47,806 bases of DNA from Thermoanaerobaculia bacterium (GCA_046714475.1 JBKKAU010000178.1:1-47806); one strand, 5' to 3'; counted from the stretch's first letter, positions 4,332 through 47,806 are shown. The notes: generated by a model from the letters alone, not told the origin. Numbers and translations: made by a program.

Positions 4332-5777
4332 CTAGGCTCCCTCCTGGGAGGCCAGGGCATTGGCGGCGGCCTGGTCCATGGCGCTCAGGGTGGCCCGGAC
4401 CCCTTGCTGCCCGGTGGTCATGCGGCCGAGCTCGACCGCCAGGTCGAGAGACAGGCGCGGCCAGGCCGGAAGGTGCGGCTCGTTGCCGAGGTGGTGGAGG
4501 ATGGCGTCCCGCGCGACGTCGAAGTGGCGGGTGGTGCCGGCCCCCACGCGCGCCCGCTCCCGCACCCGGGGGTCGTCGTAGACGCTCTGACGGGTGGCGC
4601 TCGCGCCGCTCCCCAGCAGGCTCACCCGGGTGAGCACGTCGGCGCTCGTGGCCCATTGCAGGAGCACCCAGGCGGCCTCGACGTGCCGGCCGTGCCTGGA
4701 GATGGCCAGGCTGCTGCCGCCGTGATGGCTGACGCCGGGCTTCTCGCCGAAGGCGCATTCGGCGCCGGTGCGCAGGGCCAGCGGGCGGGGCGCCGGAAAG
4801 GCCTCCGCCCGTCCTTCGAGGACCGAGGTCTCGGGGTCGTCCAGGTATGGGAAGAGCTCGCTGCTGCCGAGATAGATGCCGGCCTGACCCTGAGCGAAGC
4901 TCTCCGTCTCCCCCAACCAGTCCCACGTCGTGCACCCCGGGGGCATGTTCTTGCCCAACTCCAGCATGTACTCCATCCCGGCTGCGGCCTTCTCATCGGC
5001 GAGCGCGGGGGTCTCGTCGGCCCGGAAGAAGGAGCCGCCGTGCCCCCAGAGCCAGGGCGCCATCCTCTGGAGCAACGAAGAGTGCCCGGGCTTCCACCCG
5101 CCCGTGGTGCCGTAGACCCGGGGCGCCCTGGCCTGTTGGATCGCCCGCACCGCTTCGAGGTATTCGGTCAGCGTGGTCGGCGGCGACAGGCCGAGGTCTT
5201 CGAAGAGGTCCCGGCGGTAGACGGTGACCCAGATGGGGATGTCGAACGGGATGGCGGCGAGGCGGCCCCGGTAGGAGGCGACGTGCTCCAGGAGGGGGGG
5301 CAGGAAGTCGTCGAAGTCGTAGCCCGGATAGGCGAGGCCCGCCTTCGCCATCAGCTCCCGGGGGTCGATGCTGTCGTCGACGAACCGCCCGATCCAGGAC
5401 TGGTCCCAGGCGAAGATGTCGTAGTAGCCGGCGCGGCTGGCGGTGTCCTGACCGATGGCGGCGAGCACCCGCTCCAGGGGCAGCCGCTCCCACAACACCT
5501 CGATCCCGGTGACCGGAGTGAACTCCTCGCGCAGGATCTTGACCGTGGCCCTGCTGGACGGGCTGTCCTCGCTGACGACGCGGAGCGTGGTGCCCGAGAA
5601 GGTGCGTCCGACGTCGCGCAGGAACCTCTGGCCGTCGGTGCCGGGGATGCTGGCGGAGAGCGGGCCGGGGGTGTCCCGAAGGGCCTCCCGCGCGGGAGAC
5701 GCGGGTGGCCGCTCCCGGCAGGCCCCCAGGAGGCCCAGGCCGCCCGCGCACAGACGCAGGAAGCGGCGGCGGCTCAT
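4332..5777 (-). CDS. ABC-type extracellular solute-binding protein (family 1, sugar-like), Tat/lipoprotein-type signal
   Basis: MSRRRFLRLCAGGLGLLGAC signal (twin-Arg plus lipobox-like Cys). Family-1 SBP-like body. The track start at 5810 is also possible. Its stop at 4332-4334 lies 2 nt from the GTG of the downstream sensor gene. Confidence 0.8.
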   Translation of the reverse strand: MSRRRFLRLCAGGLGLLGACRERPPASPAREALRDTPGPLSASIPGTDGQRFLRDVGRTFSGTTLRVVSEDSPSSRATVKILREEFTPVTGIEVLWERLPLERVLAAIGQDTASRAGYYDIFAWDQSWIGRFVDDSIDPRELMAKAGLAYPGYDFDDFLPPLLEHVASYRGRLAAIPFDIPIWVTVYRRDLFEDLGLSPPTTLTEYLEAVRAIQQARAPRVYGTTGGWKPGHSSLLQRMAPWLWGHGGSFFRADETPALADEKAAAGMEYMLELGKNMPPGCTTWDWLGETESFAQGQAGIYLGSSELFPYLDDPETSVLEGRAEAFPAPRPLALRTGAECAFGEKPGVSHHGGSSLAISRHGRHVEAAWVLLQWATSADVLTRVSLLGSGASATRQSVYDDPRVRERARVGAGTTRHFDVARDAILHHLGNEPHLPAWPRLSLDLAVELGRMTTGQQGVRATLSAMDQAAANALASQEGA

Positions 5778-5962
5778 TGCCAGGCATTGTTGGCGGTCGA
5801 CGTCGTACATGCTTTGAAAGAGCCCGGGCGGGAGCTCCGGATTCCCGCTTACGCTAGCGCTGCATCACTGAATGTCGTACCCATCGTAACAAGAATGAGA
5901 CATATCGGGAAACCTGTCTGGCTTCCGGCGGCGTCCCGGAGCCAGGGGGAGGGGAACGCCCC

Positions 5963-6847
5963 TCAGGGGGCCTTGCCGGCCAGCGTCTTGTAAGTCTTGA
6001 GGTGCTTGAAGGCGGCCTGGCGGTCGCCGAGCTTCTCGTAGACGACCGACAGGTTGAAGTGGGCGTCGGCATTGGCGCCATCGCCGGTGAGCGCCATCTG
6101 GTAGGCGTGGGCGGCCTCCTCGAGCCGCTCCTGGTCCTGCAGGGCGACGCCCAGGTTGTAGGCGGCGGTGGAGTCGCTCGGCCGGGCGCCGAGCGCCAGC
6201 CGGTAGTGCATCTCGGCCCCGCCGACCTCGGCGCGCTCGTGGAGCATCCGGCCGAGGTTCAGGTGGGCGTCGGGCAGGTCGGGGTTGATCTGGAGCGCCC
6301 GGCGGTAGGCGGCCATCGCCTCCTCGGGGGCCGTGCTCTCGAGGTCGCAGCCCTGCTCGTACCACTCGTCCGCGGTCACAGGGTCCCGGCGCTCCGCCGG
6401 CTCCGCTGGTTCCGCCGACTCGGGAAACCGGCGGGTCTCCTCCCGCTCGCGGCGGGCGAACGACGCGGCCTCCCGCGCCAGCTCCGCGACCTCGAAGTCG
6501 AAGAGGGCCTGGCCCGACTCGGGGTCCCAGACCTCGCCGCCGTCGCGGACCACCACCTGGCTGCCGCGGGCGGAGATGCGGACGCCGGAGAGCGGCCGGC
6601 CGGGGAGCTGCTGGTTGAGCTTGCGCAGGGCCAGGCGGATGCGGCGGTGGGGGACCTGCGCGGCCAGCAGCCCTTTGGCCGTGCGCAGCAGGATCAGGTC
6701 CTGGAAGGAGAAGCGGTACTCGCCCCGTGTCCCCTGGCCGGGGCTCAAGAAACCGTCGCGCACGAACGAGCGCACCTGCTCGATCGAGAGACCGAGCAGG
6801 GCGGCTACGTCGCGTGTCGAGTATCCGCTGAGCGCGGGGCGATCCAT
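5963..6847 (-). CDS. MerR-like HTH domain protein with C-terminal TPR repeats
   Basis: N-terminus YSTRDVAALLGLSIEQVRSFVRDGFL...YRFSFQDLILLRTAK is MerR-type HTH. The C-terminus carries TPR-like repeats (AMAAYRRALQINPDLPDAHLNLG..., AHAYQMALTGDGANADAHFNLS...). Confidence 0.7.
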   Translation of the reverse strand: MDRPALSGYSTRDVAALLGLSIEQVRSFVRDGFLSPGQGTRGEYRFSFQDLILLRTAKGLLAAQVPHRRIRLALRKLNQQLPGRPLSGVRISARGSQVVVRDGGEVWDPESGQALFDFEVAELAREAASFARREREETRRFPESAEPAEPAERRDPVTADEWYEQGCDLESTAPEEAMAAYRRALQINPDLPDAHLNLGRMLHERAEVGGAEMHYRLALGARPSDSTAAYNLGVALQDQERLEEAAHAYQMALTGDGANADAHFNLSVVYEKLGDRQAAFKHLKTYKTLAGKAP

Positions 6848-6872
6848 CCCGCCCAGTGTACTACCCTACGCT

Positions 6873-35505: not shown

Positions 35506-36105
35506 TCAGCGCAGGCGGCGCACCTCGCGGTGGCGGAAGCAGCCGGTGAGATGGTCGTTGACCATGCCCACGGCCTGCATGAGAGCGTAGCAGATGGTCG
35601 GCCCCACGAAGGTGAACCCCCGCCGCTGGAGCTCGCGGCTCAGGGTCTTGGACTCGGGGGTCTCCGGGGGGACCTCATTCATGCTCGCCCAGGCGTTCTG
35701 CTTCGGGGCGCCGCCGACGAAGGTCCAGAGATAGCGGTCGAAGCTGCCGTGCTCGCGCTGGACTTCGAGGAATGCCCGCGCGTTGCGCACCGTGCCCTCG
35801 ACCTTGAGACGGTTGCGGATGATGCCCGGATCGGCGAGGAGGGCCTCGACCTTGTCGGGGCCGTAGCGCGCGACGATCTCCGGGTCGAAGCCGTCGAAGG
35901 CCCGGCGGTAGCTCTCGCGCCGCCGCAGGATGGTGAGCCAGGACAGCCCGGCCTGGGCGCCTTCGAGGATCAGCATCTCGAACAGGTGGCGGTCGTCGTG
36001 GGCCGGCACGCCCCACTCCTCGTCGTGGTAGACGATATAGAGCGGGTCGCCGAGCCCCCAGGGGCAGCGGGGGCGGTCATCGGGGGGCGGAGTCTTCTCC
36101 TTCAT
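35506..36105 (-). CDS. tag: DNA-3-methyladenine glycosylase I
   Basis: CPWGLGDPLYIVYHDEEWGVP..., FEMLILEGAQAGLSWLTILRRRESYRRAF, and the C-terminal Cys/His zinc-ligand pattern. Confidence 0.9.
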   Translation of the reverse strand: MKEKTPPPDDRPRCPWGLGDPLYIVYHDEEWGVPAHDDRHLFEMLILEGAQAGLSWLTILRRRESYRRAFDGFDPEIVARYGPDKVEALLADPGIIRNRLKVEGTVRNARAFLEVQREHGSFDRYLWTFVGGAPKQNAWASMNEVPPETPESKTLSRELQRRGFTFVGPTICYALMQAVGMVNDHLTGCFRHREVRRLR

Positions 36106-36177
36106 CGTCCTGTGTTTCTATCACGCCAGTCTTGGAACCCGGTAGGCGGGAGATACAATCTGGTGAGGCCGTTCCAG

Positions 36178-36206
36178 TTGACGGATACTCCTGCCTGACT
36201 TACGCT
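36178..36206 (+). promoter_or_regulatory. Candidate sigma70-type promoter for the DUF262-HipA operon
   Basis: TTGACG, a 17-nt spacer, then TACGCT. The -10 element ends 28 nt before the TTG start at 36235. Confidence 0.35.
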
Positions 36207-36234
36207 ACGGGGCTGACGACCAAGGGAGAAAGTA

Positions 36235-37860
36235 TTGGATCCAACCCCATCGCCACGGAGCCAGGCAACGACCCAGACGGTCCAGGACCTGGTCACGCTT
36301 GTTCGTCGTGGCCAAGTCAGGGTGCCGAGCTTCCAGCGTGATCTGAAATGGAAGGCGGACGATGTCGTCGCCCTATTCGACAGCATCTACCGTGGGTATC
36401 CCATCGGGTCGTTTCTCCTCAGCAAAGGCCAGGCGGAGGCCGAGCGGATCGTCATGGGACCTCTTGCCATAGACGCTCCGGATACCCAATCGGCTCTATG
36501 GGTCGTAGACGGCCAGCAACGTCTGACGGCGCTGACTGTTGGGCTTTCACGACCGGCACCGATTCCTCTGACACCAGATGATCCCTGGGTCGTCTACTTC
36601 GATGCCGAGAGACAAATCTTCATTACTCCCCCTAAGAAAGGCGGAGTACCTTCCACTGCGATCCCCGTTATACACCTCCTGGATTCTTCGGTTCTCAGTG
36701 AGTGGGTCTATGAGTGGGCCCATGGCCGCAACGCTGCTCTGCGGACGTCCGTCTTCCAGGCAGGCCGCCGGATTCGGGAGTATGAAATACCCCTTTACAT
36801 TGTTGAAACCGAGGATGAAGAGCTCCTGAGAGACATCTTCTATCGCGTCAACAAGTTTGGGAAGCGTTTGGATTGGGATGACGTACACAAGGCGCTCTTT
36901 GGGCGTAAAGGCGCACATCCGTCGACTCTGCCTGAGCTGGCCGATGAGCTTCAAGGGCTCGGAATGGGACGACCGGAAGAGGAACAGCTGCTATCGTGTC
37001 TGATGGCGTTCAAAGGACTCGATGTCACGCGGAATATCGCCGACCACTACCGGAAAGATACAGAGGTGCTTAGAAATGCTGTCTCGGAAGCACTGCCCGC
37101 AATCCGTCGTGTCCTATCGTTCCTAAAGATCCATGCTGAGATCCCCCATCTGCGGCTGCTGCCGAGATCCATGCCGTTGATCGTGTTGACTAGGTTCTTT
37201 GCTTTACATCCCGAACCCAAGGCTCGAACCTTGGATCTATTGACGCGCTGGACTTGGCGCATGTTGTTGGGTGCGAGCGTGTACGATGAGCTTACCCTTA
37301 TGCGGCGCGGAGTTGCAGCTATCCGAGGGAGCGACGAGGAGCAGAGTGCCCAAGCCCTGCTTTCTCTCGTATCCAGTGGCGAAAAGAGATTTTTAGCTCT
37401 GCCCCAGCGATTCGATGCCCGCGCAGCCGAGAGCCGGATTGCGGTCCTCGGGATGGCATCGCTGAGGCCGCTGAATGTGAGTGACAAGAAGCCTCTCGAC
37501 ATCGCCGCCTTGATTGAGGAGCGAGATGCAGATGCCTTCCGGAGGATTCTTCCGAGGGGCGAAGTATTTGGCTCTAGTCCGGTGAATCGCATCCTTCTGC
37601 CCGGCGCCGGCTCGGCTCGCAAGGAGCTCGTCGACGAAATTACGAGCCATGGACCTGACACCGCCGTGCTGCGTTCACACGGCATTTCCGCAGCGGCGGC
37701 GGAGGCTCTCCTCCAAGGCGACGTGGAGTCGTTCCTGAAGGAGCGCGCCCAAGTGATTGAAGAGGCGGTAGACCATCTGGGGCAACGACTCGCGGCCTGG
37801 TCCAAAAACGACCGGCCATCCATCTCCTACCTGCTCGCGCAAGTGGAAACTGAGGCTTGA
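36235..37860 (+). CDS. DUF262 (ParB/Srx-fold, GmrSD N-terminal-like) protein with divergent C-terminal half
   Basis: TTG lies 5 nt after AGGGAGA. VRVPSFQRDLKWKADDVVALFDSIYRGYPIGSFLL, LWVVDGQQRLTAL, IFYRVNKFGKRL. The C-terminus contains FRRILPRGE...SSPVNRILLPG, which looks like a His-less version of the DUF1524 motifs. Confidence 0.85.
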   Translation: MDPTPSPRSQATTQTVQDLVTLVRRGQVRVPSFQRDLKWKADDVVALFDSIYRGYPIGSFLLSKGQAEAERIVMGPLAIDAPDTQSALWVVDGQQRLTALTVGLSRPAPIPLTPDDPWVVYFDAERQIFITPPKKGGVPSTAIPVIHLLDSSVLSEWVYEWAHGRNAALRTSVFQAGRRIREYEIPLYIVETEDEELLRDIFYRVNKFGKRLDWDDVHKALFGRKGAHPSTLPELADELQGLGMGRPEEEQLLSCLMAFKGLDVTRNIADHYRKDTEVLRNAVSEALPAIRRVLSFLKIHAEIPHLRLLPRSMPLIVLTRFFALHPEPKARTLDLLTRWTWRMLLGASVYDELTLMRRGVAAIRGSDEEQSAQALLSLVSSGEKRFLALPQRFDARAAESRIAVLGMASLRPLNVSDKKPLDIAALIEERDADAFRRILPRGEVFGSSPVNRILLPGAGSARKELVDEITSHGPDTAVLRSHGISAAAAEALLQGDVESFLKERAQVIEEAVDHLGQRLAAWSKNDRPSISYLLAQVETEA

Positions 37861-39095
37861 GGAGGACCTTTCAGGTTTCCCTGAGCGGTTTTCCCGTCGG
37901 CCACCTTTCGGAGGGGGACGACGGCCGGATCTCCTTCCGGTTCCTCGACGAGTACCGGCACATGCCGCAACGCCCCGTCTTGAGCCAGTCGTTCGAGGAT
38001 GACCTTTTCAGGCCCTACCGGGGCAAGCGGAATGAGCTCCCTGCCTTTTTCGCCAATCTCGTACCCGAAGGTCCTCTACGGGAGTTGATCGAGGCCAGTC
38101 TGCGGATCTCTCACGGCGATGAGATAGCTCTCCTCGCGGCTGTAGGGCGGGACCTTCCGGGTGCGGTCGAAATCCAAATCGAGTCTGGGAAAATAGAAGA
38201 CTTGGCGGACGGCGACACAGACGAACCCGCCGTGCCCGATCCGGAATCCGAAGAGGGCGTGCTGCGCTTCTCTCTCGCCGGAGTGCAGCTTAAGTTCTCT
38301 ATGTTGCGTGAGGGTGCGAAGCTGACGATCCCAGCGCATGGCCGGCTTGGAGAGTGGATCGTGAAGCTGGACTCGTCGCGATTCTCGCACGTGGTGGAAA
38401 ACGAGTTCGCCTCCCTGGAGTGGGCCCGCGCGGCAGGGTTCGACGTCCCGGAGTGCCATCTGCAGCCCTGCGGCGCGCTTCCGCCTTCCTTGCGCGGATT
38501 CGCGAATCCGGACTCGCAGGTCCTCGTCATCCGTCGCTACGACCGCGACGGTCCTCGGCGTATCCATCAGGAGGACTTCGCGCAAGTCGTGGGCCTGCCG
38601 CCGAGGCTCAAGTACGACCTCATCACCTATGAGCAGTGTGCTGTCCTGGTACGACAGATCGCCGGGGAGGACGCCTATCTAGAGTTCATCCGGCGGCTGG
38701 CCTTTGTCATCGGCTGCGGGAATGAGGATGCGCACCTCAAGAACTGGTCCTTCGTGTATCCGGATGGTGTCAATGCCAAGCTGTCCCCTCTCTATGACCA
38801 GGTCTGTACGATCGCTTGGCCTGAGCTGGGGGGTAAACTGGCGCTGAAGCTGGCCGGGCTCAAGCCTCTGCTGGCGGTAGACGAGGCGGTTTTCGTGAGG
38901 CTGGCGAAGAAGGCCAGGGTTGATGTCGATTCCACGATCTCCGTTCTGCGAGACACCTTGATTCGGATGGCCGCCGCATGGCACGTCTCGAAGGGGAGGA
39001 ATGCCATGCCGCAGGACCACCTCGAGACGCTCCGCTCGTACTGGATGAAAGCGCCCCTGTTGAAGCCTTATGCGGCGATGCTTGTGCTCGAGTAG
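37857..39095 (+). CDS. hipA: HipA-family Ser/Thr kinase (full length: N-terminal coupling domain plus kinase core)
   Basis: The TTG start overlaps the upstream stop (TTGA). FFANLVPEGPLRELI, FSLAGVQLKFS, VIRRYDR, IHQEDFAQV, CGNEDAHLKNWSF. Confidence 0.9.
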   Translation: MRRTFQVSLSGFPVGHLSEGDDGRISFRFLDEYRHMPQRPVLSQSFEDDLFRPYRGKRNELPAFFANLVPEGPLRELIEASLRISHGDEIALLAAVGRDLPGAVEIQIESGKIEDLADGDTDEPAVPDPESEEGVLRFSLAGVQLKFSMLREGAKLTIPAHGRLGEWIVKLDSSRFSHVVENEFASLEWARAAGFDVPECHLQPCGALPPSLRGFANPDSQVLVIRRYDRDGPRRIHQEDFAQVVGLPPRLKYDLITYEQCAVLVRQIAGEDAYLEFIRRLAFVIGCGNEDAHLKNWSFVYPDGVNAKLSPLYDQVCTIAWPELGGKLALKLAGLKPLLAVDEAVFVRLAKKARVDVDSTISVLRDTLIRMAAAWHVSKGRNAMPQDHLETLRSYWMKAPLLKPYAAMLVLE

Positions 39096-39104
39096 GAATT
39101 CCGA

Positions 39105-39599
39105 ATGAGACGAGGCAGACTCCTTTCGCTGTTCACGATGTGGTCGATCGTGGCCCTTCTCGGTTTGAGCCTCGGCGAAGCCCTCGCCGCGCGCTGGAGC
39201 GGCACCGAGCCGCGGATCAATCAGACCCATGTCTTCCAGGGGGAGATCAACCGGCGGGGGCGGCCGGTCGGCTTCCATTCGCGGCCGGGCGGGCGCAACC
39301 CCCAGGGGGCGCGGGTGGCCGGCGTGACGCGCGGGCCCAACCGCGAGGGGGTCTACGAGGCGCGGGTCGAGATCCGTGACCCGGAGAGCGGCCGGTGGCT
39401 GGAGAAGCGGTCGACTTTCTTCCCCGACTCCATGAGCCGCGACCAGGTGATCCGCGCCATCTTGAATGCCTGGCGCGGGCGGACGACGGGGCAGTCTCAG
39501 AAGTTCCGCGGCCCGTCGGGCCGGGGCTTCACCATCGAAGGCTATCTCCTGGACGGCGACATCAACACCGCGTATCCGATCTACCGGGAGGGTCGATGA
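39105..39599 (+). CDS. Bacterial EndoU-family RNase toxin domain with N-terminal signal peptide
   Basis: MRRGRLLSLFTMWSIVALLGLSLGEALA, then HVFQGEINRRGRPVGFHS...GVYEARVEI...KRSTFFPDSMSRDQVIRAI...GFTIEGYLLDGDINTAYPIY. This matches the EndoU_bacteria pattern. Confidence 0.8.
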   Translation: MRRGRLLSLFTMWSIVALLGLSLGEALAARWSGTEPRINQTHVFQGEINRRGRPVGFHSRPGGRNPQGARVAGVTRGPNREGVYEARVEIRDPESGRWLEKRSTFFPDSMSRDQVIRAILNAWRGRTTGQSQKFRGPSGRGFTIEGYLLDGDINTAYPIYREGR

Positions 39600-39931
39600 A
39601 GCTGGAGATCTATCGCGACGAGGCGGGAGACCCCCGCGTCCAGTCGGAGGAGGACGGTTCGCTGCTGGCCCGGTTCCTGGAGAGCGACATCCAGGGCAAT
39701 CCCGAGCACGGTCGCGAGATCCTGCGGGCGATCGAGGAGGTGGAGGCGGGGGAGACCGAAGCCTGGGAGGAGACGGGCAACGCCCATACCCTGATCCTGT
39801 CGTCGGTCGGCGCCGTGATCGAAGCCGAATTCGAGGACGCGCCGGCCTGCCGGCTGTCCCTGGCCGAGCTCTGGGAGGCGGTCGCGGATTGGGTTGCCTT
39901 CCTGGATGCCGAGGAGGGAGAGCGCGCCTGA
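39596..39931 (+). CDS. Acidic 111-aa protein, UPF0231/YacL-like; candidate immunity/partner of the EndoU protein
   Basis: ATG overlaps the EndoU stop (ATGA). MKLEIYRDEAGDPRV...AWEETGNAHTLILSSVGAVIEAEF...LSLAELWEAVADWVAFL parallels the E. coli YacL layout as I recall it. Confidence 0.55.
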   Translation: MKLEIYRDEAGDPRVQSEEDGSLLARFLESDIQGNPEHGREILRAIEEVEAGETEAWEETGNAHTLILSSVGAVIEAEFEDAPACRLSLAELWEAVADWVAFLDAEEGERA

Positions 39932-40377
39932 TGGCGAAGGGGGAGCGCAAGGGGCCGCCGCCGCTCCCGGATCCCGAGAACGGCCTCTGGCAGGGCCGGC
40001 CGGTGGCGCGGCGGTTTGTGTCGCCCGACGGAATGACGGTGCTCGTCGGCAAGACCGCCGAGGACAACGACATCCTCACCTTGAAGCTGGGGGCGCCGCG
40101 CGATTTCTGGTTCCACGTCGCCAGCGAGTCCGGCTCGCACGTGGTCGTGCGCAACCCCGAAGGTCTGGACCGCCTGCCGCGCGAGACCGAGCGCTTCGCG
40201 GCCTCCCTGGCCGCCGGCTACTCCAAGGCGCGGCATGGCGGCCGCGTCTCCGTCCACGTCTGCACCTGCGCCGACATCAGCAAGCCTCGCGGCCTGCCGC
40301 CGGGCAAGGTGGTGCTGGAGCGCTTCAAGAACCTGCAGGTCGCGCCCGCCCGCGCCGACAGCCCCGATCCGGCCTGA
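39931..40377 (+). CDS. NFACT-R (DUF814) domain protein
   Basis: ATG overlaps the previous stop by 1 nt (TGATG). VLVGKTAEDNDILT, DFWFHVASESGSHVVV, VHVCTCADISKPRGLPPGKV. Confidence 0.8.
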   Translation: MAKGERKGPPPLPDPENGLWQGRPVARRFVSPDGMTVLVGKTAEDNDILTLKLGAPRDFWFHVASESGSHVVVRNPEGLDRLPRETERFAASLAAGYSKARHGGRVSVHVCTCADISKPRGLPPGKVVLERFKNLQVAPARADSPDPA

Positions 40378-40380
40378 CGC

Positions 40381-40863
40381 TCAGAGAGAGGCGAGGACCG
40401 CCTCGGCGCCACTCTCCCGCACCTCGCCGGGCTGGTCGACGCGCAGGGACTTGAGGACGCAGTCCTCGACGACAGCGGCGTAGCGTTGCGAGCGGAGCCC
40501 CATGCCGAAGCCGCGGGAGTCCATCTCCAGGCCCATGGCGCGGGCGAAGTCGCCGTTGCCATCGGCGAGCATCAGGACCTTGTCCCCGACCCCCTTGGCC
40601 TTGGCCCAGGCGTCCATGACGAAGACGTCGTTGACCCCGACACAGGCGACGACGTCGATCCCCCTGGCCTTGATCTCGCCGGCGTGCTGGACGAAGCCGG
40701 GCAGGTGCTCGTTCGAGCAGGTCCCCGTGAAGGCGCCCGGTACGGCGAAGAGGACGACCTTGTGGCCCTGGAGGAACTCGTGCGTCGAGATGGCCCGCGG
40801 GCCCTTGTCCGTCATGGTGTGGAGCTTGACGTCCGGAACCTTGTCACCAACCTGGATGGCCAT
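40381..40863 (-). CDS. Peroxiredoxin, Prx5 subfamily
   Basis: MAIQVGDKVPD..., VVLFAVPGAFTGTCS (peroxidatic Cys), VACVGVNDVFVMDAW. Confidence 0.9.
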   Translation of the reverse strand: MAIQVGDKVPDVKLHTMTDKGPRAISTHEFLQGHKVVLFAVPGAFTGTCSNEHLPGFVQHAGEIKARGIDVVACVGVNDVFVMDAWAKAKGVGDKVLMLADGNGDFARAMGLEMDSRGFGMGLRSQRYAAVVEDCVLKSLRVDQPGEVRESGAEAVLASL

Positions 40864-40971
40864 TTGCATTTCTCCCTGGATCGAGCCGGACCTCGCCGGT
40901 CCGGCTGTCATGATCGTATCTCCGCAGACGGACGACCCGGCTGATCCGTATGCTGAAGCAGGAGACTATCG

Positions 40972-42231
40972 ATGACCGAACCTCTGGAAAAGCTTCACGA
41001 CCCTGATCTCGACCGTCTCGTCCGCGAGCTCAACAGCCGCGAGGCGCCCCTTGAGTCGTACGCCGCGGACAGCCCGGCCGCCGTCTCGGACATCGCGCTC
41101 GACATCCCCGCCCGCATCCAGGTCGTCGAAGGGGAGCCGCTGGACCGGCTGCTCGGCGAGATGGTCCGGCTGCGGGCGAGCGACTTGTTGCTGGTGGCGG
41201 GGCTGCCGCCGGTCTTCCGGGTGGACGGGCGGCTCGCCCGCGCCCAGTCCGAGCCTCTGGACGGCGACGAGCTGGCGGCGATGTTCCACTCCCACATGGG
41301 GGGCCGGCTCCGCCGGGAGATGGAGGAGCGGGGGGCGGCCGACCTCTCGTTGCGGCTGTCCCCCGGCCGCGAGCTGGACGACGGCCTGCGCGGCCCGGGC
41401 GGCTCCTCCTGGCGGTTCCGGGTGAACCTGCACCGTCAGCGCGGGCAGCTGGCGGCGGCGATCCGGTCGCTGCCCTCGGAGATCCCCAGCCTGGCGGGGC
41501 TCAACCTGCCGTCCGCCCTGGCCGAGCTGGTGCGGCCCAACCGCGGCCTGGTGCTGGTCTGCGGGCCGACCGGCTCCGGCAAGTCGTCGACGCTCGCCGC
41601 CCTGGTGGCCGAGCTGAACCACCACCGCGCCTGCCACATCATCACCATCGAAGACCCGGTCGAATACGAGCACCGTTCGGGCAAGGCGGTCGTGGAGCAT
41701 GTCGAGATCGGGCGCGACGCCCGCTCCTTCCCGGAGGCGTTGCGCGCCTCGCTGCGGCAGGACCCGGACGTCATCCTGGTCGGCGAGATGCGCGACCTGG
41801 AGACGGTGGCGACGGCGCTGACGGCGGCCGAGACCGGCCACCTGGTGCTCTCGACGCTCCACACCAACGACGCGGCGCAGGCGGTGCACCGCATCGTCGA
41901 CGTCTTCCCGCCGGCCCAGCAGGGACAGATCCGGCAGCAGCTCGCCCTCTCGCTCCACGCCATCGTGGTGCAGCAGCTCGTGCCGCGCGTCGACGGCCAC
42001 GGCCGGGTGCCCGCCGTCGAGCTGATGCTGGGCACCTACCCGGTGCGCAACCACATCCGCAGCGACAGCCTGCAGAAGCTCTACAACGAGATCACCCTTG
42101 GCAAGCGCCACGGCATGATCTCCATGGAGCAGTCGCTGGCGGACCTGGTCCAGGCGGGGAAGATCGACATGGAGGAGGCCCTCGTCCGGTCGAGCCATCC
42201 GGACGAGTTGGGGACGCTGCTCCGGACGTAA
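40972..42231 (+). CDS. pilT: PilT-family type IV pilus retraction ATPase with about 60-aa N-terminal extension
   Basis: AGGAG RBS. GPTGSGKSSTLAALV (Walker A), HIITIEDPVEYEH, DPDVILVGEMRD, GHLVLSTLHTND. Confidence 0.9.
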   Translation: MTEPLEKLHDPDLDRLVRELNSREAPLESYAADSPAAVSDIALDIPARIQVVEGEPLDRLLGEMVRLRASDLLLVAGLPPVFRVDGRLARAQSEPLDGDELAAMFHSHMGGRLRREMEERGAADLSLRLSPGRELDDGLRGPGGSSWRFRVNLHRQRGQLAAAIRSLPSEIPSLAGLNLPSALAELVRPNRGLVLVCGPTGSGKSSTLAALVAELNHHRACHIITIEDPVEYEHRSGKAVVEHVEIGRDARSFPEALRASLRQDPDVILVGEMRDLETVATALTAAETGHLVLSTLHTNDAAQAVHRIVDVFPPAQQGQIRQQLALSLHAIVVQQLVPRVDGHGRVPAVELMLGTYPVRNHIRSDSLQKLYNEITLGKRHGMISMEQSLADLVQAGKIDMEEALVRSSHPDELGTLLRT

Positions 42232-42251
42232 CTTGGCAGCTAACTGGGCAG

Positions 42252-42935
42252 CTAACTGGGTAACAGCGGCCGCAGGTCGAAGTGGGGGATGCCGCCGGGG
42301 CCGGACATCAGCTGGAGCAGCAGCTCCTCCAGCTCCCGCAGGCTCGGCGACTCCATGAGGACCTGCCGCTCCGCGGCGGAGAAGGGGAGCGCGTGGGCGA
42401 TCGCGGTGACGATCTCCGTGCCCTCCATGCCGTCCATGATCGACAGGTCCAGACCGGTCTGGTTGGACTCGATCCGCTGGCGGACCACGTCCCGGAGCGC
42501 CGGGAACTGCAGCCCCTCTTCGATGTCCGGGAGGTCGTCCAGGAACTCCTGGTAGTCCACCTCCACCCTGCGGTAGCCGTGGACGGGCGGCAGCTCGCGG
42601 AGCACGCGGAAGCGGATCACTCCGCCGACCAAGGCGACGCTCTCGTCCGGCCCCTCCTCCCGGAACTCCCCGATATAACCGAGGCAGCCGACCGAGTAGA
42701 GGGCGGAGTCGGCGGGGCCGGGCTCGCCCACGGCCTCCTCGTCGCTGGTCTCGGTCGGCTGGAGGATGCCGATATAGCTGTCGACCCCCAGGGCTTCCTC
42801 GATGAGGGTGCGGTACTGGGGCTCGGCGATAAAGAGCGGCACCGCCGTCCCCGGCAGCAGCAGGGGGGCCGCCAGAGGGAAGACGGGGATGACCGTCGGC
42901 AACGAATCCGGATCAGGAGGGAAGTCGGGTTCCAT
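42252..42935 (-). CDS. Lon N-terminal (LON substrate-binding) domain protein
   Basis: IPVFPLAAPLLLPGTAVPLFIAEPQYRTLIEEAL is typical of standalone Lon-N domain proteins. Confidence 0.8.
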   Translation of the reverse strand: MEPDFPPDPDSLPTVIPVFPLAAPLLLPGTAVPLFIAEPQYRTLIEEALGVDSYIGILQPTETSDEEAVGEPGPADSALYSVGCLGYIGEFREEGPDESVALVGGVIRFRVLRELPPVHGYRRVEVDYQEFLDDLPDIEEGLQFPALRDVVRQRIESNQTGLDLSIMDGMEGTEIVTAIAHALPFSAAERQVLMESPSLRELEELLLQLMSGPGGIPHFDLRPLLPS

Positions 42936-43020
42936 GGGCCTATCTTTCCAGACCCCGTCAGGCTCCGCAATGGGACCAGGGGGCGCTACCTCTGTATACG
43001 GAGGAGACCGGCGGAGCGTT

Positions 43021-43054
43021 GAAAAGGAAAAAGCCCGGCCTGACGGCCGGGCTT
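43021..43054 (-). terminator. Rho-independent terminator after clpB
   Basis: AAGCCCGGCC-tgac-GGCCGGGCTT. On the minus strand it is followed by TTTTTCCTTTTC. Confidence 0.65.
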
Positions 43055-43084
43055 CGATAAGCAGGAGGGAGGTGGGATGGCGGC

Positions 43085-45757
<2,673 letters not shown>

Positions 45758-45786
45758 GGTGTCCTTATTTCCACAAAGCCGATCTG

Positions 45787-46749
45787 TCAGGCCCTGGCCC
45801 GGAACTCCGAAGTCTCGGCGAGTTGCTGAAAAAGCTCTCGTTCCTCGGGAGAAAGACGGTCCGGAACGACGATCCGGATCTCGGCGAAGAGATCCCCCCG
45901 CTCGCCGCTGGCCTTCTTGAAGCCGCGCTCGCGCAGGCGGATCTTGCGCCCCGAGGAAGAGCCCTCGGGAATCCTGATCCGGACGGGTCCCTCGGGCGTC
46001 TCGACCTCGGCGTCGCCGCCCAGCGCCGCCTCCCACGGCGTCACCGGCACCTGGGTGTAGAGGTCGGACTCTTCCACCCGGAACCGCGGGTCGGGCAGGA
46101 CCTCGATCTTCAGATAGAGGTCTCCCGCCGGGCCGCCGCCCAGGCTGGGCTGACCCTGCCCGGCGAGGCGGATCCGCTGGCCGCTGCGGACGCCGGCGGG
46201 GATCTTGATCGAGAGGTTCTTGCGCTGACCTGTCGCCGGGTCCGACAGCGAGACCTCCCGGTTGCCGCCGCGCAGGGCCTCCTCCAGGGTCAGGGAGATC
46301 TGCGCTTCGGAGTCGCTGCCCGCCTGGTTCGCAAAGCCTTCGAAGCTGCCGCCCGGGAACCCACCGCCCCGCCGGCCGCCCGGGCCGCCGCGGCCGAAGA
46401 GCATCTCGAAGAACGAGCTGAAGTCGCCGGCGCCGCCACCGCTGAAATCGAAGCTGCCGCCCTGACCGCCCAGGTTGCTGAAGTCGAAGCCCTCCCACCC
46501 GGGCGGCGGCGCGCCGCGCTGCTGCGCGTGCTTCCAGGCCGATCCGAACTGGTCGTACTTCTTCCGCTTCTCCGGGTCCTTGAGGACCTCGTAAGCCTCG
46601 CCGATCTCCTTGAACTTGACCTCGGCCTTGGGGTCCTTGTTGACGTCCGGGTGGAATTTGCGCGCCAGCTTGCGGTACGTCTTCTGGATCTCGTCCTGCG
46701 GGGCGTCCCGGTTGATCCCGAGGGTCTCGTAGTAGTCCTTGTAGTCCAA
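45787..46749 (-). CDS. cbpA: DnaJ-family co-chaperone of CbpA type (J domain, G/F region, C-terminal domains, no zinc finger)
   Basis: TTG start after [43 protein letters not shown]. No CxxCxGxG repeats. Confidence 0.9.
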
Positions 46750-46793
46750 TGGATGTCTCTCCTCGCCATCTCACCTCTGAGCGCGCAAAAAAC

Positions 46794-46819
46794 TTTGAGT
46801 GCTCAGCACTCACATTGTA
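46794..46819 (-). promoter_or_regulatory. HAIR-like (HspR-type) inverted repeat abutting a TACAAT -10 box upstream of cbpA-clpB
   Basis: The minus strand reads TACAAT-g-TGAGT-GCTGAGC-ACTCAAAG, close to the HAIR consensus CTTGAGT-N7-ACTCAAG. It lies 45-64 nt upstream of the cbpA start. Confidence 0.5.
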
Positions 46820-46936
46820 GAACGGAGTCCTCCAGCTTTCCATTCCCCGGAGCAAGTTGTCTTTGGAACGAGGCGCTGAAGCGAGGAAGGCGCGGTCTCC
46901 CGCGCCTTTCTCAGGAGCCGGAAACGAGGCGTCCGG

Positions 46937-47191
46937 TCACGGAGGGGTGATGCCGAAGTGCTCGTAGTTCTTGGCGATATAGGCCTTCCACTTGTCCGGG
47001 ATCTCGTCCTGGGGGTAGATCGCCGACACCGGGCAGGCGTCGACACAGAGCCCACAGTCGATGCACTCCTCGGGGTGGATGTAGAGCATCTCCCAGTCCT
47101 CGTTCTTGCCGTAGATGCAATCCACGGGGCAGACGTCCACGCAGGCCGTATCCTTCGTGCCGACACAAGGTTCAGCGATGATGTGCGTCAT
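46937..47191 (-). CDS. fdxA: 7Fe-type ferredoxin ([3Fe-4S][4Fe-4S])
   Basis: AGGAGG RBS. CVGTKDTACVDVCPVDCI and CIDCGLCVDACPV cluster motifs. Confidence 0.9.
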   Translation of the reverse strand: MTHIIAEPCVGTKDTACVDVCPVDCIYGKNEDWEMLYIHPEECIDCGLCVDACPVSAIYPQDEIPDKWKAYIAKNYEHFGITPP

Positions 47192-47270
47192 TCCAGGCCC
47201 CTCCTAAGTGGCCACGAGCTCCAAGGCCGCCCTCGGAGTCTCCAGATACTACATCCGACGCGGGTTCCGC

Positions 47271-47806
47271 TCAACGGCGCTCCAGGAACCTCGCGGGCCT
47301 GAACGGGCCGGCTTCGTTCTCGCCGAGCCCCGCGGTGACCCGCCGCGCCACTTCCCGGGCTGTCCAGGGAGCAAGCAGGATGCCATTGCGGAAGTGGCCG
47401 GAGGCCACGACCACGGGCCAGCCCGGCAGCGCTCCGAGCAGCGGCAGGCCGTCCGGAGTCCCCGGCCGCAGGCCCGCCCAGGAGGTCTCGAGCCGCGCCG
47501 CGTCGAGGCCGGGGAGATAGCGCCGGGTGAACGCCAGCAGGCTCTCGACGCCGGCGACCGTGGGGTGCGCCGCGAAGCCCGCCTCCTCGACGGTCGCCCC
47601 GACCAGGAGGCCGATCTCCCCCCGCCGCACGGCGTAGGCGCGCAGGCCGCGCACGGTCCCCTTCCAGGGCCACTCGACGCCGCCGAGCAGCAGCATCTGG
47701 CCGCGCACCGGCCGCACCGGCAGCTCGGGCAGCCCGGGGAGACGGCCGCTCCAGGCTCCGGCCGCGAGCACGAGCAGGCCGGCCTCGCGGGTCCAGTCCG
47801 CCCCGG
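47271..47806 (-). CDS. thiO: FAD-dependent glycine oxidase (ThiO/DAO family), C-terminal part; gene continues past right edge
   Basis: RPVRGQMLLL..., WAGLRPGTPDGLPLLG, VASGHFRNGILLAP. Confidence 0.7.
   Translation of the reverse strand, partial: GADWTREAGLLVLAAGAWSGRLPGLPELPVRPVRGQMLLLGGVEWPWKGTVRGLRAYAVRRGEIGLLVGATVEEAGFAAHPTVAGVESLLAFTRRYLPGLDAARLETSWAGLRPGTPDGLPLLGALPGWPVVVASGHFRNGILLAPWTAREVARRVTAGLGENEAGPFRPARFLERR

What the first reader, a model, noticed from the sequence alone, without database searches (positions are those of the whole stretch)
36178..40377. Five-gene, translationally coupled operon: DUF262/ParB-like, HipA kinase, EndoU RNase, acidic YacL-like protein, NFACT-R (DUF814)
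All five genes are on the plus strand with junctions of TTGA overlap, a 9-nt gap, ATGA overlap and TGATG overlap. A TTGACG-17-TACGCT promoter candidate lies upstream. The operon is bracketed by unrelated housekeeping genes: tag is divergent and the peroxiredoxin is convergent. Three products have established links to the translation apparatus. HipA kinases phosphorylate aminoacyl-tRNA synthetases. EndoU toxins cleave RNA/tRNA. NFACT-R domains, as in RqcH/Rqc2, are predicted RNA-binding domains of ribosome quality-control (RQC) proteins that handle tRNA. The first gene belongs to the DUF262 family, known from type IV restriction (GmrSD), BrxU and SspE-type defence proteins. I know of no described system with this composition. 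It looks like a composite toxin/defence cassette acting on tRNA or translation. The first two genes also look AT-richer than the flanks, which suggests horizontal acquisition.
Basis: partly seen in the sequence, partly recalled or inferred. Interest (0 to 1): 0.85.

Follow-up and report, generated by a model that had tools for sequence, protein, structure and literature searches.

The report
Three unrelated gene units, one insertion
The five genes are real and correctly identified, but they are not one system: a horizontally acquired two-gene DUF262–HipA kinase module landed next to a native secreted-RNase/inhibitor pair and an unrelated RNA-binding gene, and the widespread DUF262–HipA pairing appears undescribed.

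Summary
All five domain calls and all four gene junctions are confirmed. The five-gene "system" does not survive comparison with relatives.

- **Insertion.** A close relative (L082) has the same neighbourhood, tag | EndoU–YacL-like–NFACT-R | peroxiredoxin–PilT, but no DUF262–HipA. A block of about 3 kb with low GC (window about 36108–39179) is inserted in the window lineage and in one sister lineage (L172).
- **DUF262–HipA.** In 80 genomes anchored on the DUF262 protein, HipA follows directly in 76. Three of the other four are cut by a contig end and one keeps only a HipA remnant. None has EndoU, YacL-like or NFACT-R nearby.
- **EndoU–YacL-like.** In 80 metagenome loci anchored on EndoU, 66 have the acidic YacL-like gene directly downstream. 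None has DUF262–HipA.
- **NFACT-R.** It follows the peroxiredoxin gene, not the EndoU pair.

There are therefore three units.
1. A mobile DUF262–HipA module. It is probably a toxin/abortive-infection pair in which a GmrSD-like protein with no detectable nuclease domain takes the place of HipB.
2. A Sec-exported EndoU RNase with a cytoplasmic acidic inhibitor, following barnase/barstar logic.
3. A stand-alone NFACT-R gene.

The DUF262–HipA organisation is absent from the published Hip classification. PADLOC holds only a sister family, PDC-M55C, which has other partners.

The parts
36108..39179 (.). Block absent from the close relative L082 (3,072 bp replacing 114 bp). It is the horizontally acquired DUF262-HipA insertion. 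The true ends are probably about 36150 on the left and between 39096 and 39179 on the right.
   Evidence: blastn of window against L082: 30023-36107 matches at 87.6% and 39180-47806 at 89.8%, with nothing in between. GC of the block is 0.56-0.62. No terminal repeats were found.
36178..36206 (+). It lies inside the inserted block.
   Evidence: Read from the sequence. The -10 matches only 3 of 6 positions and is not reported by the scan.
36132..36159 (+). Alternative sigma-70-like site, TTGGAA-16-TACAAT (9 of 12 matches).
   Evidence: one site found against 0.5 expected, so it is not significant.
36235..37860 (+). g1: DUF262/GmrSD_N protein, 541 aa. It has an invariant DGQQR motif and a helical C-terminal half with no detectable DUF1524/HNH domain. 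It belongs to a sister family of PADLOC PDC-M55C. It is the predicted partner (antitoxin or sensor) of HipA.
   Evidence: Pfam. PADLOC PDC-M55C at 7.9e-60. Homologues of about 544 aa cover the full length. AF2 model with pLDDT 82.6; best fold matches are BrxU and SspE. No GmrSD_C. DGQQR is invariant at four of five positions in 79 sequences (one Q-to-H change).
37857..39095 (+). g2: full-length HipA-family Ser/Thr kinase, 412 aa, with catalytic residues intact. It is the predicted toxin or effector.
   Evidence: Pfam HipA_C and Couple_hipA. PDB matches to HipT, HipA and HipS. S139, K170, D291, H293, K295, N296 and D314 are invariant in 66 family members. It lies directly downstream of the DUF262 gene in 76 of 80 loci, with an overlap or a gap of at most about 20 nt.
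39105..39599 (+). g3: small EndoU-family RNase with an N-terminal Sec-type signal peptide (residues 1 to about 28, MRRGR-hydrophobic-ALA|ARW). The mature part is basic (pI 11.3).
   Evidence: Pfam EndoU_bacteria. H42, H58, K101, S103 and T104 are invariant among the four aligned sequences. Signal-like N-termini occur across the EndoU-anchored metagenome loci where a complete ORF could be read (71 of 80).
39596..39931 (+). g4: acidic YacL/UPF0231-like protein (111 aa, pI 4.1, net charge -21). It is the predicted cytoplasmic inhibitor of g3.
   Evidence: Pfam UPF0231 at 31.7 bits. It lies immediately downstream of EndoU in 66 of 80 loci. AF2 model with pLDDT 90; no significant match to a PDB fold.
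39931..40377 (+). g5: stand-alone NFACT-R (DUF814) protein, 148 aa. It is a native gene whose conserved neighbour is the peroxiredoxin gene, not EndoU.
   Evidence: Pfam. It matches RqcH residues 447-559 and CCDC25. In L094 and L134 the order is NFACT-R, then prx (opposite strand), then pilT, EndoU and YacL-like. It is absent next to EndoU in L085-L090.
35506..36105 (-). tag (3-methyladenine DNA glycosylase I). This is the native left flank.
40381..40911 (-). Peroxiredoxin (AhpC-TSA/Redoxin). This is the native right flank.

Best explanation
The five genes are a mosaic of three independent units. A single insertion of about 3 kb made them adjacent, and probably co-transcribed.

Unit 1 (g1-g2) is a self-contained, horizontally mobile two-gene module found across many phyla.
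- It consists of a GmrSD/BrxU-like DUF262 protein followed by a translationally coupled HipA-family kinase.
- The DUF262 protein keeps the ParB/Srx-type DGQQR nucleotide-binding domain but has no detectable nuclease domain.
- Inferred mechanism: HipA is the growth-arresting effector. By analogy with HipA and HipT, it phosphorylates an aminoacyl-tRNA synthetase or another translation factor.
- The DUF262 protein takes the place of HipB as the cognate neutraliser or sensor. It holds the kinase inactive until a nucleic-acid or nucleotide cue, such as foreign or modified DNA, releases it.
- This would be a toxin-antitoxin or abortive-infection module in which a kinase encoded in trans replaces the missing DUF1524 nuclease.

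Unit 2 (g3-g4) is a native, lineage-conserved pair.
- g3 is a basic EndoU RNase exported by the Sec pathway.
- g4 is a very acidic cytoplasmic YacL/UPF0231-like protein. It most likely binds and inhibits the RNase before export, as barstar does for barnase.

Unit 3 (g5) is a stand-alone NFACT-R RNA-binding gene. Its conserved neighbour is the peroxiredoxin gene.

Shown: the mosaic structure, the conservation of each unit, and intact catalytic motifs. Inferred: who neutralises whom, the kinase target, the trigger, export of g3 and inhibition by g4.
For: Insertion:
- L082 is collinear with the window on both sides at 88-90% nt identity, but has 114 bp where the window has 3,072 bp.
- The block has GC 0.56-0.62. 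GC3 is 0.63 and 0.77 for g1 and g2, against 0.88-0.96 for g3-g5 and host genes.
- L172 shares the insertion.

Unit 1:
- 351 genome loci encode a g1 relative. Of the best 80, 76 have HipA directly downstream, 3 end at a contig edge, and 1 (L030) keeps only a 41-aa HipA remnant.
- The junction is an overlap or a gap of at most about 20 nt everywhere.
- No third gene is conserved.
- g1 and g2 identities co-vary across loci, r = 0.91.
- Hosts span Acidobacteriota, Cyanobacteria, Myxococcota, Bacteroidota, Planctomycetota, Gemmatimonadota and Alpha-, Beta- and Gammaproteobacteria.
- The pair also sits on a conjugative Azospirillum plasmid next to a recombinase gene.
- Kinase motifs, including the Gly-loop Ser, are invariant.
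- DGQQR is invariant at four of five positions in 79 sequences (one Q-to-H change).
- The fold is closest to BrxU and SspE, but there is no GmrSD_C domain.
- The sister family PDC-M55C pairs with other partners: an AAA ATPase plus the B component in P. yeei pYEE5, and an AbiP-like protein in a Klebsiella plasmid. This fits a sensor with interchangeable partners.

Unit 2:
- EndoU and the acidic protein of about 106-112 aa are adjacent in 66 of 80 loci.
- Signal peptides are conserved.
- The pI values are 11.3 and 4.1.

Unit 3:
- L094 and L134 have NFACT-R next to prx, separated from EndoU by pilT. L085-L090 have EndoU-YacL-like with no NFACT-R.
Against: - There is no experimental or transcript evidence.
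- In the window the five genes are tightly packed (9-nt gap, then overlaps) with no convincing terminator, so they are probably co-transcribed now.
- The arrangement has persisted in two lineages that differ by about 15% in nucleotide sequence. A secondary functional coupling therefore cannot be excluded.
- The first 25 codons of g3 (the signal peptide) are not alignable with L082 and have insert-like GC (0.56). This could mean the donor already carried an EndoU-type gene downstream of HipA, although none of the 160 surveyed loci shows that.
- Nothing shows that the DUF262 protein neutralises HipA. At 541 aa it is far larger than known Hip antitoxins.
- Only roughly 9-13 of 73 immediate neighbours of the module match PADLOC families, so enrichment in defence islands is weak and was not tested statistically.
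- No phage record carries a g1 relative.
- g4 matches UPF0231 over only about two thirds of the profile.
Confidence: 0.8

Rival explanations
1. One reading: all five genes form one integrated toxin/defence cassette that acts on tRNA or translation. DUF262 would be the sensor, HipA and EndoU the effectors, and YacL-like and NFACT-R the immunity or accessory factors.
For: - The five genes are tightly packed, with overlaps or a 9-nt gap.
- No convincing internal terminator was found.
- The arrangement is retained in the sister lineage L172.
- Three of the domain families have known links to translation.
Against: - None of 80 DUF262-HipA loci has g3-g5.
- None of 80 EndoU loci has g1-g2.
- L082 has g3-g5 without g1-g2 in the same chromosomal slot.
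- There is a sharp compositional break between g2 and g3.
- NFACT-R is separable from EndoU-YacL-like.
- EndoU carries a signal peptide, so its substrate is probably outside the cytoplasm.
Confidence: 0.04
2. g1-g2 is a plain addiction or persistence-type toxin-antitoxin module. It would stabilise mobile DNA or produce dormancy and have no role in phage defence. The DUF262 protein would be only a large antitoxin and autoregulator.
For: - The gene order and coupling are hipBA-like, with the partner upstream and an overlap.
- The pair occurs on a conjugative plasmid next to a recombinase gene.
- Chromosomal contexts are scattered and mostly housekeeping.
- L030 keeps the partner and has lost the kinase, as often happens with decaying TA loci.
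Against: - The DUF262/GmrSD_N domain with an intact DGQQR motif is otherwise known from DNA-sensing defence enzymes (BrxU, SspE, GmrSD).
- Its sister family is a PADLOC candidate defence component.
- Some neighbours match defence families.
- A 541-aa enzyme-like partner with a conserved nucleotide-binding motif is more than neutralisation alone requires.
Confidence: 0.3
3. In g1-g2 the roles are reversed. The DUF262 protein would be the effector, using NTPase or DNA-directed activity, and HipA would be a regulatory kinase that switches it on or off by phosphorylation.
For: - The C-terminal half of g1 is strongly conserved, with many invariant residues of unknown role.
- HipA kinases autophosphorylate and can have several substrates (established knowledge; see PMC8262856).
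Against: - No nuclease or other effector domain is detectable in g1.
- All characterised HipA-family kinases act as toxins (PMC8262856).
- In L030 the DUF262 gene survives without the kinase. That fits a harmless partner better than a kinase-dependent effector.
Confidence: 0.12
4. g3-g4 is an interbacterial toxin-immunity pair of the polymorphic-toxin type, not a secreted housekeeping or scavenging RNase with a self-protection inhibitor.
For: - EndoU_bacteria is best known as a toxin domain of CdiA and other polymorphic toxins (Pfam description).
- Tight linkage to a small acidic protein is the classic toxin-immunity layout.
Against: - g3 has only a Sec signal peptide and no delivery, receptor-binding or translocation domain.
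- The pair sits in conserved core synteny, often directly after pilT, and is about 50-87% identical across loci rather than hypervariable.
Confidence: 0.25

Closest known systems
hipBA, hipBST and other Hip kinase toxin-antitoxin modules (Gerdes et al. 2021, PMC8262856)
   Same: - g2 is a full-length HipA-family kinase: a HipS-like Couple_hipA N-subdomain plus a HipA_C core.
- All catalytic motifs and the Gly-loop Ser are present.
- The partner gene is upstream and translationally coupled.
   Different: - The partner is not an HTH HipB, HipS, HIRAN, Stl-like or resolvase-like protein. It is a 541-aa DUF262/ParB-Srx protein.
- This organisation is not among the gene organisations listed for 1,239 modules (11 rows in Table S2B; the text counts 10).
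- That study kept only kinases with an adjacent DNA-binding antitoxin.
GmrSD, BrxU and SspE type IV restriction/defence enzymes
   Same: - N-terminal DUF262 domain with the DGQQR motif.
- The best whole-model fold matches are BrxU (7p9k, E 2e-11) and SspE.
   Different: - There is no DUF1524/GmrSD_C HNH domain by Pfam or profile comparison, and no His at the position of BrxU's catalytic D-H.
- A kinase gene is coupled instead.
PADLOC candidate system PDC-M55 (A: AAA ATPase; B; C: DUF262)
   Same: g1 matches PDC-M55C over its full length (E 7.9e-60), so it shares that family's C-terminal architecture.
   Different: - The A and B components are absent, and g2 matches no PDC-M55 model.
- A genuine PDC-M55C (P. 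yeei pYEE5) scores 2.8e-125 and has A and B upstream.
- No paper on PDC-M55 was found.
ptuXYZ (Gerdes 2025, PMC11980606)
   Same: It is another operon in which a DUF262 protein lacking DUF1524 is combined with a separately encoded toxin-type effector.
   Different: ptuXYZ has three genes, with a PtuA-like ATPase and a PIN-BECR RNase. Here there are two genes and the effector is a HipA kinase.
Barnase-barstar, and CdiA-CT(EndoU)/CdiI
   Same: - g3 is a basic RNase of the BECR superfamily with an export signal.
- g4 is a small, very acidic protein that is tightly linked and co-conserved with it.
   Different: - g4 is YacL/UPF0231-like. It is not barstar or a known CdiI, and its predicted fold has no significant PDB match.
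- g3 is a stand-alone domain with no CDI, Rhs or T6SS delivery region.
RqcH/NEMF NFACT proteins and CCDC25
   Same: g5 matches the NFACT-R domain (RqcH residues 447-559; CCDC25).
   Different: g5 consists of the NFACT-R domain alone. It has no NFACT-N, HhH or coiled-coil region. Its NCBIfam RqcH score is 29.5 against a cut-off of 400.

Membership tests
HipA-family Ser/Thr kinase | HipA_C kinase core plus the N-terminal Couple_hipA subdomain | tested here: met
   Pfam: 158.1 and 77 bits, both above cut-off. PDB matches to HipT, HipA and HipS.
HipA-family Ser/Thr kinase | Gly-rich loop Ser, ATP-binding Lys, catalytic D-x-H-x-K-N loop and Mg-binding D | tested here: met
   S139, K170, D291, H293, K295, N296 and D314 are invariant in 66 module kinases.
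hipBA type II TA module | Adjacent small HTH (HipB) antitoxin and autorepressor gene | tested here: not met
   The upstream gene is a 541-aa DUF262 protein. No HTH gene is conserved in the 80 loci.
hipBA type II TA module | Kinase toxicity that is neutralised by the partner | not testable with these tools
   This needs expression and rescue experiments.
GmrSD/BrxU/SspE type IV restriction enzymes | N-terminal DUF262 (ParB/Srx-like) domain with the DGQQR motif | tested here: met
   Pfam GmrSD_N at 84.3 bits. DGQQR is invariant at four of five positions in 79 sequences (one Q-to-H change). Fold match to BrxU.
GmrSD/BrxU/SspE type IV restriction enzymes | C-terminal DUF1524/GmrSD_C HNH nuclease domain | tested here: not met
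   No Pfam hit, even at E<=10 on residues 301-541. hhalign against BrxU aligns only residues 14-107. There is no His at the position equivalent to BrxU's D-H.
PADLOC PDC-M55 | C component (DUF262 protein of this architecture) | tested here: met
   E 7.9e-60 over residues 12-519. This is weaker than a genuine member at 2.8e-125.
PADLOC PDC-M55 | A (AAA ATPase) and B components adjacent | tested here: not met
   Neither is present in the window, and g2 hits no PDC-M55 model. For comparison, see pYEE5.
EndoU_bacteria RNase | EndoU domain with the conserved His-His-Lys and Ser/Thr residues | tested here: met
   Pfam at 84.3 bits. H42, H58, K101, S103 and T104 are invariant among the four aligned sequences.
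Polymorphic/CDI EndoU toxins | N-terminal delivery region (CdiA, Rhs, T6SS or T7SS trafficking domains) | tested here: not met
   g3 is a 164-aa protein with only a Sec-type signal peptide ahead of the EndoU domain.
UPF0231 / YacL | Pfam PF06062 match above the gathering score | tested here: met
   31.7 bits against 25, but only profile positions 1-77 of 121 are matched. The NCBIfam equivalog models are far below cut-off, at 20.7 against 180.
RqcH/NEMF (NFACT) ribosome quality-control proteins | NFACT-R domain | tested here: met
   NFACT-R_1 at 51.8 bits. Matches RqcH residues 447-559.
RqcH/NEMF (NFACT) ribosome quality-control proteins | NFACT-N, HhH and coiled-coil architecture | tested here: not met
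   g5 is 148 aa and consists of the NFACT-R domain only. RqcH_arch scores 29.5 against a cut-off of 400.

The most novel reading that the evidence does not exclude
DUF262-HipA is a new, widespread two-gene anti-phage (abortive-infection) system and a new Hip kinase family. In it, a GmrSD/BrxU-like DNA or nucleotide sensor that has lost its own nuclease domain gates a HipA kinase. On infection the kinase shuts down translation. As a second, independent novelty, YacL/UPF0231 proteins would be inhibitors of secreted EndoU RNases. That would be the first functional clue for this family.
Probability: 0.35. Interest if true: 0.65.

Novelty: new variant of a known kind. Interest (0 to 1): 0.45.

Why it matters
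It removes a false lead. The five-gene tRNA/translation cassette is an artefact of one insertion.

It isolates a real and apparently undescribed module.
- A HipA kinase is paired with a GmrSD-like DUF262 protein with no detectable nuclease domain instead of HipB.
- The pair is conserved in hundreds of genomes across at least seven phyla and occurs on a conjugative plasmid.
- If it proves to be a defence or TA system, it extends the Hip kinase classification.
- It would also be a clean natural example of effector swapping on a DUF262 sensor: an HNH nuclease in cis replaced by a kinase in trans, with an ATPase set as partner in PDC-M55.

Separately, the EndoU–YacL-like pair gives a testable function, RNase inhibitor, for the uncharacterised UPF0231/YacL family. 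E. coli has a member of that family.

Tried and rejected
- **Exact look-up of g1 in assemblies** failed. The collection holds a shorter gene call for g1 (468 aa, P0001).
- **A third conserved gene around DUF262-HipA.** I clustered 2,544 flanking ORFs. Only species-level Myxococcus synteny came out.
- **Terminal direct or inverted repeats at the insertion borders.** Nothing paired the two ends. A possible short duplication of the EndoU ribosome-binding region is only suggestive.
- **A degenerate HNH domain in g1.** By eye, 'FRRILPRG...NRILLPG' resembles BrxU's 'VDHIYPKG...PNLQLLEG'. Neither hhalign nor Pfam supports this, and the motif is not conserved in the wider family. I do not claim an inactivated nuclease.
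- **Fold search for g4.** No significant PDB match; the best hit is E 0.1.
- **PDB sequence search for g3.** No hit.
- **Phage records.** No g1 relative found.
- **Literature.** No paper links HipA with DUF262 or GmrSD beyond an unrelated mention. None links YacL with EndoU, and none mentions PDC-M55. Gerdes's supplementary tables do not mention the six genera searched for, five of which carry the module in the genome survey.
- **Defence-island enrichment.** Only a rough count was possible, about 9-13 of 73 neighbours, with no background control. The first attempt exceeded the residue limit.

Full report
**1. Observation**

The region holds five plus-strand ORFs:
- g1: 36235-37860, TTG start, 541 aa
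- g2: 37857-39095, 412 aa
- g3: 39105-39599, 164 aa
- g4: 39596-39931, 111 aa
- g5: 39931-40377, 148 aa

Pfam confirms every domain call above its gathering score: GmrSD_N/DUF262, HipA_C plus Couple_hipA, EndoU_bacteria, UPF0231 (partial coverage) and NFACT-R_1. No DUF1524/GmrSD_C domain is found.

The proposed promoter TTGACG-17-TACGCT is present at 36178-36206, but it is weak. The scan reports a different site, at chance frequency.

g1 and g2 are clearly AT-richer than their surroundings. GC is 0.58-0.62 and GC3 is 0.63-0.77, against GC3 of 0.88-0.96 for g3-g5 and the flanking genes.

**2. The five genes are not one conserved system**

*Anchoring on g1.*
- A profile of the g1 family found 351 loci in one-genome-per-species contigs.
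- In the best 80, a HipA homologue lies immediately downstream in 76.
- Three of the other four end at a contig edge. One (L030) retains only a 41-aa HipA remnant.
- None of the 80 has a homologue of g3, g4 or g5 within 7 kb.
- The DUF262/HipA junction is an overlap or a gap of at most about 20 nt in every lineage.
- No third gene is conserved.
- The identities of the two proteins to the window co-vary, r = 0.91.

*Anchoring on g4.*
- The g4 family is small and appears to be specific to Thermoanaerobaculia.
- Its contigs include L082 (GCA_035546255.1). L082 is collinear with the window for more than 14 kb: M16-M16-M28-tag | EndoU-g4-NFACT-R | Prx, PilT, LON, ClpB.
- L082 has no DUF262-HipA.
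- blastn places the discontinuity at window 36108-39179, which is 3,072 bp against 114 bp in L082. This coincides with the compositional break.
- More distant relatives have PilT followed by EndoU and YacL-like, with no NFACT-R.

*Anchoring on g3.*
- Of 80 metagenome loci, 66 have the g4-like acidic ORF directly downstream. None has g1 or g2.
- NFACT-R follows directly only in the closest relatives (L091, L092).
- In L094 and L134 the order is NFACT-R, then prx on the opposite strand, then pilT, EndoU and YacL-like. NFACT-R therefore stays with prx, while the EndoU pair moves as a unit.

*The sister lineage.*
- The closest HipA (87% aa, L172) sits in the same HipA-EndoU-YacL-NFACT-R arrangement at about 85% nt identity.
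- The insertion therefore predates the split of two sister lineages. It remains a single event.

**3. Unit 1: DUF262-HipA**

The kinase (g2):
- It is a full-length HipA-family kinase. Its core is about equally distant from HipT and from Shewanella and E. coli HipA. Its N-subdomain resembles HipS.
- Every catalytic residue, and the Gly-loop Ser that HipA autophosphorylates, is invariant in 66 module kinases.

The DUF262 protein (g1):
- Its DGQQR motif is essentially invariant.
- The AlphaFold model (pLDDT 82.6) is most similar over its whole length to BrxU and then SspE.
- Sequence and profile comparison align only the N-terminal domain, and no HNH motif is detectable.

Relation to PADLOC:
- g1 matches PDC-M55C over its full length, while g2 matches no PDC-M55 model.
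- A genuine PDC-M55 on Paracoccus yeei pYEE5 has an AAA ATPase and a B protein upstream of the DUF262 gene.
- A Klebsiella plasmid has an AbiP-like partner.
- An Azospirillum conjugative plasmid carries DUF262-HipA beside a recombinase gene.
- This DUF262 architecture is thus a shared component with interchangeable partners.

Family size and context:
- The DUF262 family has 566 clusters at 50% identity with E<=1e-30.
- Neighbours of the module are mostly housekeeping genes. A minority, roughly 9-13 of 73, match defence models.

My inference is that HipA is the growth-arresting effector. The DUF262 protein would be its neutraliser or sensor, occupying HipB's position. The module would then be of TA or abortive-infection type. 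This is inference, not demonstration.

**4. Unit 2: EndoU plus YacL-like**

- g3 has a classic Sec signal: a positive n-region, a hydrophobic core and ALA|A. It keeps the conserved EndoU His/His/Lys/Ser-Thr positions. Signal-like N-termini recur across the loci where a complete EndoU ORF could be read.
- Mature g3 is basic (pI 11.3). g4 is extremely acidic (pI 4.1, net charge -21).
- g4 models confidently (pLDDT 90) but has no significant PDB fold match.
- The simplest reading is an exported RNase whose cytoplasmic precursor is neutralised by a co-expressed acidic inhibitor, as barstar neutralises barnase.
- An interbacterial toxin-immunity role is the main rival. It is weakened by the lack of any delivery domain and by the pair's core-genome synteny.

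**5. Unit 3: NFACT-R**

g5 is an NFACT-R domain on its own. It resembles RqcH residues 447-559 and CCDC25. It is translationally coupled to g4 only in the closest relatives.

**6. Literature**

- The Hip kinase classification of 1,239 modules lists no DUF262 partner, and it selected for DNA-binding antitoxins (PMC8262856).
- The only paper containing both 'HipA' and 'DUF262' or 'GmrSD' describes a different DUF262 operon, ptuXYZ (PMC11980606).
- No paper mentions PDC-M55, and none links YacL with EndoU.
- Within the searchable library, the DUF262-HipA organisation is therefore undescribed.

**7. Unresolved**

- The right end of the insertion is not fixed. The first 25 codons of g3 are unalignable with L082 and have insert-like GC.
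- However, signal peptides also diverge fast between the window and L172: 73% identity there, against 92% for the rest of g3.
- No terminal repeats or mobility genes mark the insertion.

**8. Verdict**

- The five-gene interpretation is not supported. Its sub-claims, horizontal acquisition and a DUF262-HipA toxin/defence pair, are supported.
- The item of real interest is the two-gene DUF262-HipA module, a new variant of known kinds.
- A secondary lead is the YacL-like protein as a possible EndoU inhibitor.

Noticed in passing
window 39105-39179 (first 25 codons of g3): The signal-peptide coding part of g3 does not align with the close relative L082. Its GC is 0.56, like the insert, against 0.71 for the rest of the gene. 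The sister lineage L172 shares the variant signal peptide. Either the insertion event replaced the 5' end of EndoU in frame, or this segment simply evolves very fast.
   Followed up: partly
L030 8537-8659 (Thermoanaerobaculia MAG DATFPH010000409.1): This is the only assessable locus without a full HipA. A 41-aa HipA-like remnant (residues 115-153, E 0.012) lies directly after an intact DUF262 gene. It looks like loss of the kinase with retention of the partner.
   Followed up: partly
L085 6238-8339; L088 6399-8333; L094 2649-4815; other EndoU loci: In many relatives the EndoU-YacL-like pair follows a PilT-type ATPase gene on the same strand. In some the gap is only 2-60 nt, as in L085, L088 and L094; in others pilT lies about 2-3 kb upstream. 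The window and L082 lineage appears to have moved the pair about 1.5 kb, to the other side of NFACT-R and prx. Whether the pilT linkage is functional or just synteny is unknown.
   Followed up: partly
L174 2624-6623 (Paracoccus yeei plasmid pYEE5); L175 3925-6518 (Klebsiella pneumoniae plasmid OW969918.1): Distant relatives of g1 sit in other operons. One is a complete PADLOC PDC-M55 (AAA ATPase, B, DUF262). The other is a pair with a 338-aa protein weakly similar to AbiP. This suggests that this DUF262 architecture is a reusable component with swappable partners.
   Followed up: partly
L128, L144, L146, L160, L161, L166, L168, L169: A marine or sediment subgroup of the EndoU homologues has an N-terminal membrane-anchor-like segment (KRYKRY-hydrophobic) instead of a cleavable signal. 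It lacks the YacL-like gene. Several have a protein of about 280 aa downstream instead.
   Followed up: no
L085 8376-11786; L090 1324-4872: Where NFACT-R is absent, the EndoU-YacL-like pair is followed by a large (about 1,140-1,180 aa) protein with no confident Pfam domain. In L088 and L089 this is split into two genes of about 600 and 574 aa. A small-ORF-plus-PIN pair follows 0.1-1.1 kb further on.
   Followed up: no
window 36235-37860: The public gene call for g1 (P0001, 468 aa) is N-terminally truncated. Homologues of about 544 aa align from residue 3-10 of the TTG-initiated ORF, so the TTG at 36235 (preceded by GGGAGA) is the likely start.
   Followed up: yes
L004, L005, L006, L030 (about 5770-6860): In four Thermoanaerobaculia or Holophagales genomes the DUF262 gene sits directly downstream of a PilT paralogue (44-45% identity to the window's PilT); three of them carry the full DUF262-HipA module and L030 keeps only a HipA remnant. 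One of these assemblies (GCA_035637095.1) also carries PilT-EndoU-YacL-like on another contig (L086). This may be a recurrent insertion site, or a coincidence.
   Followed up: no
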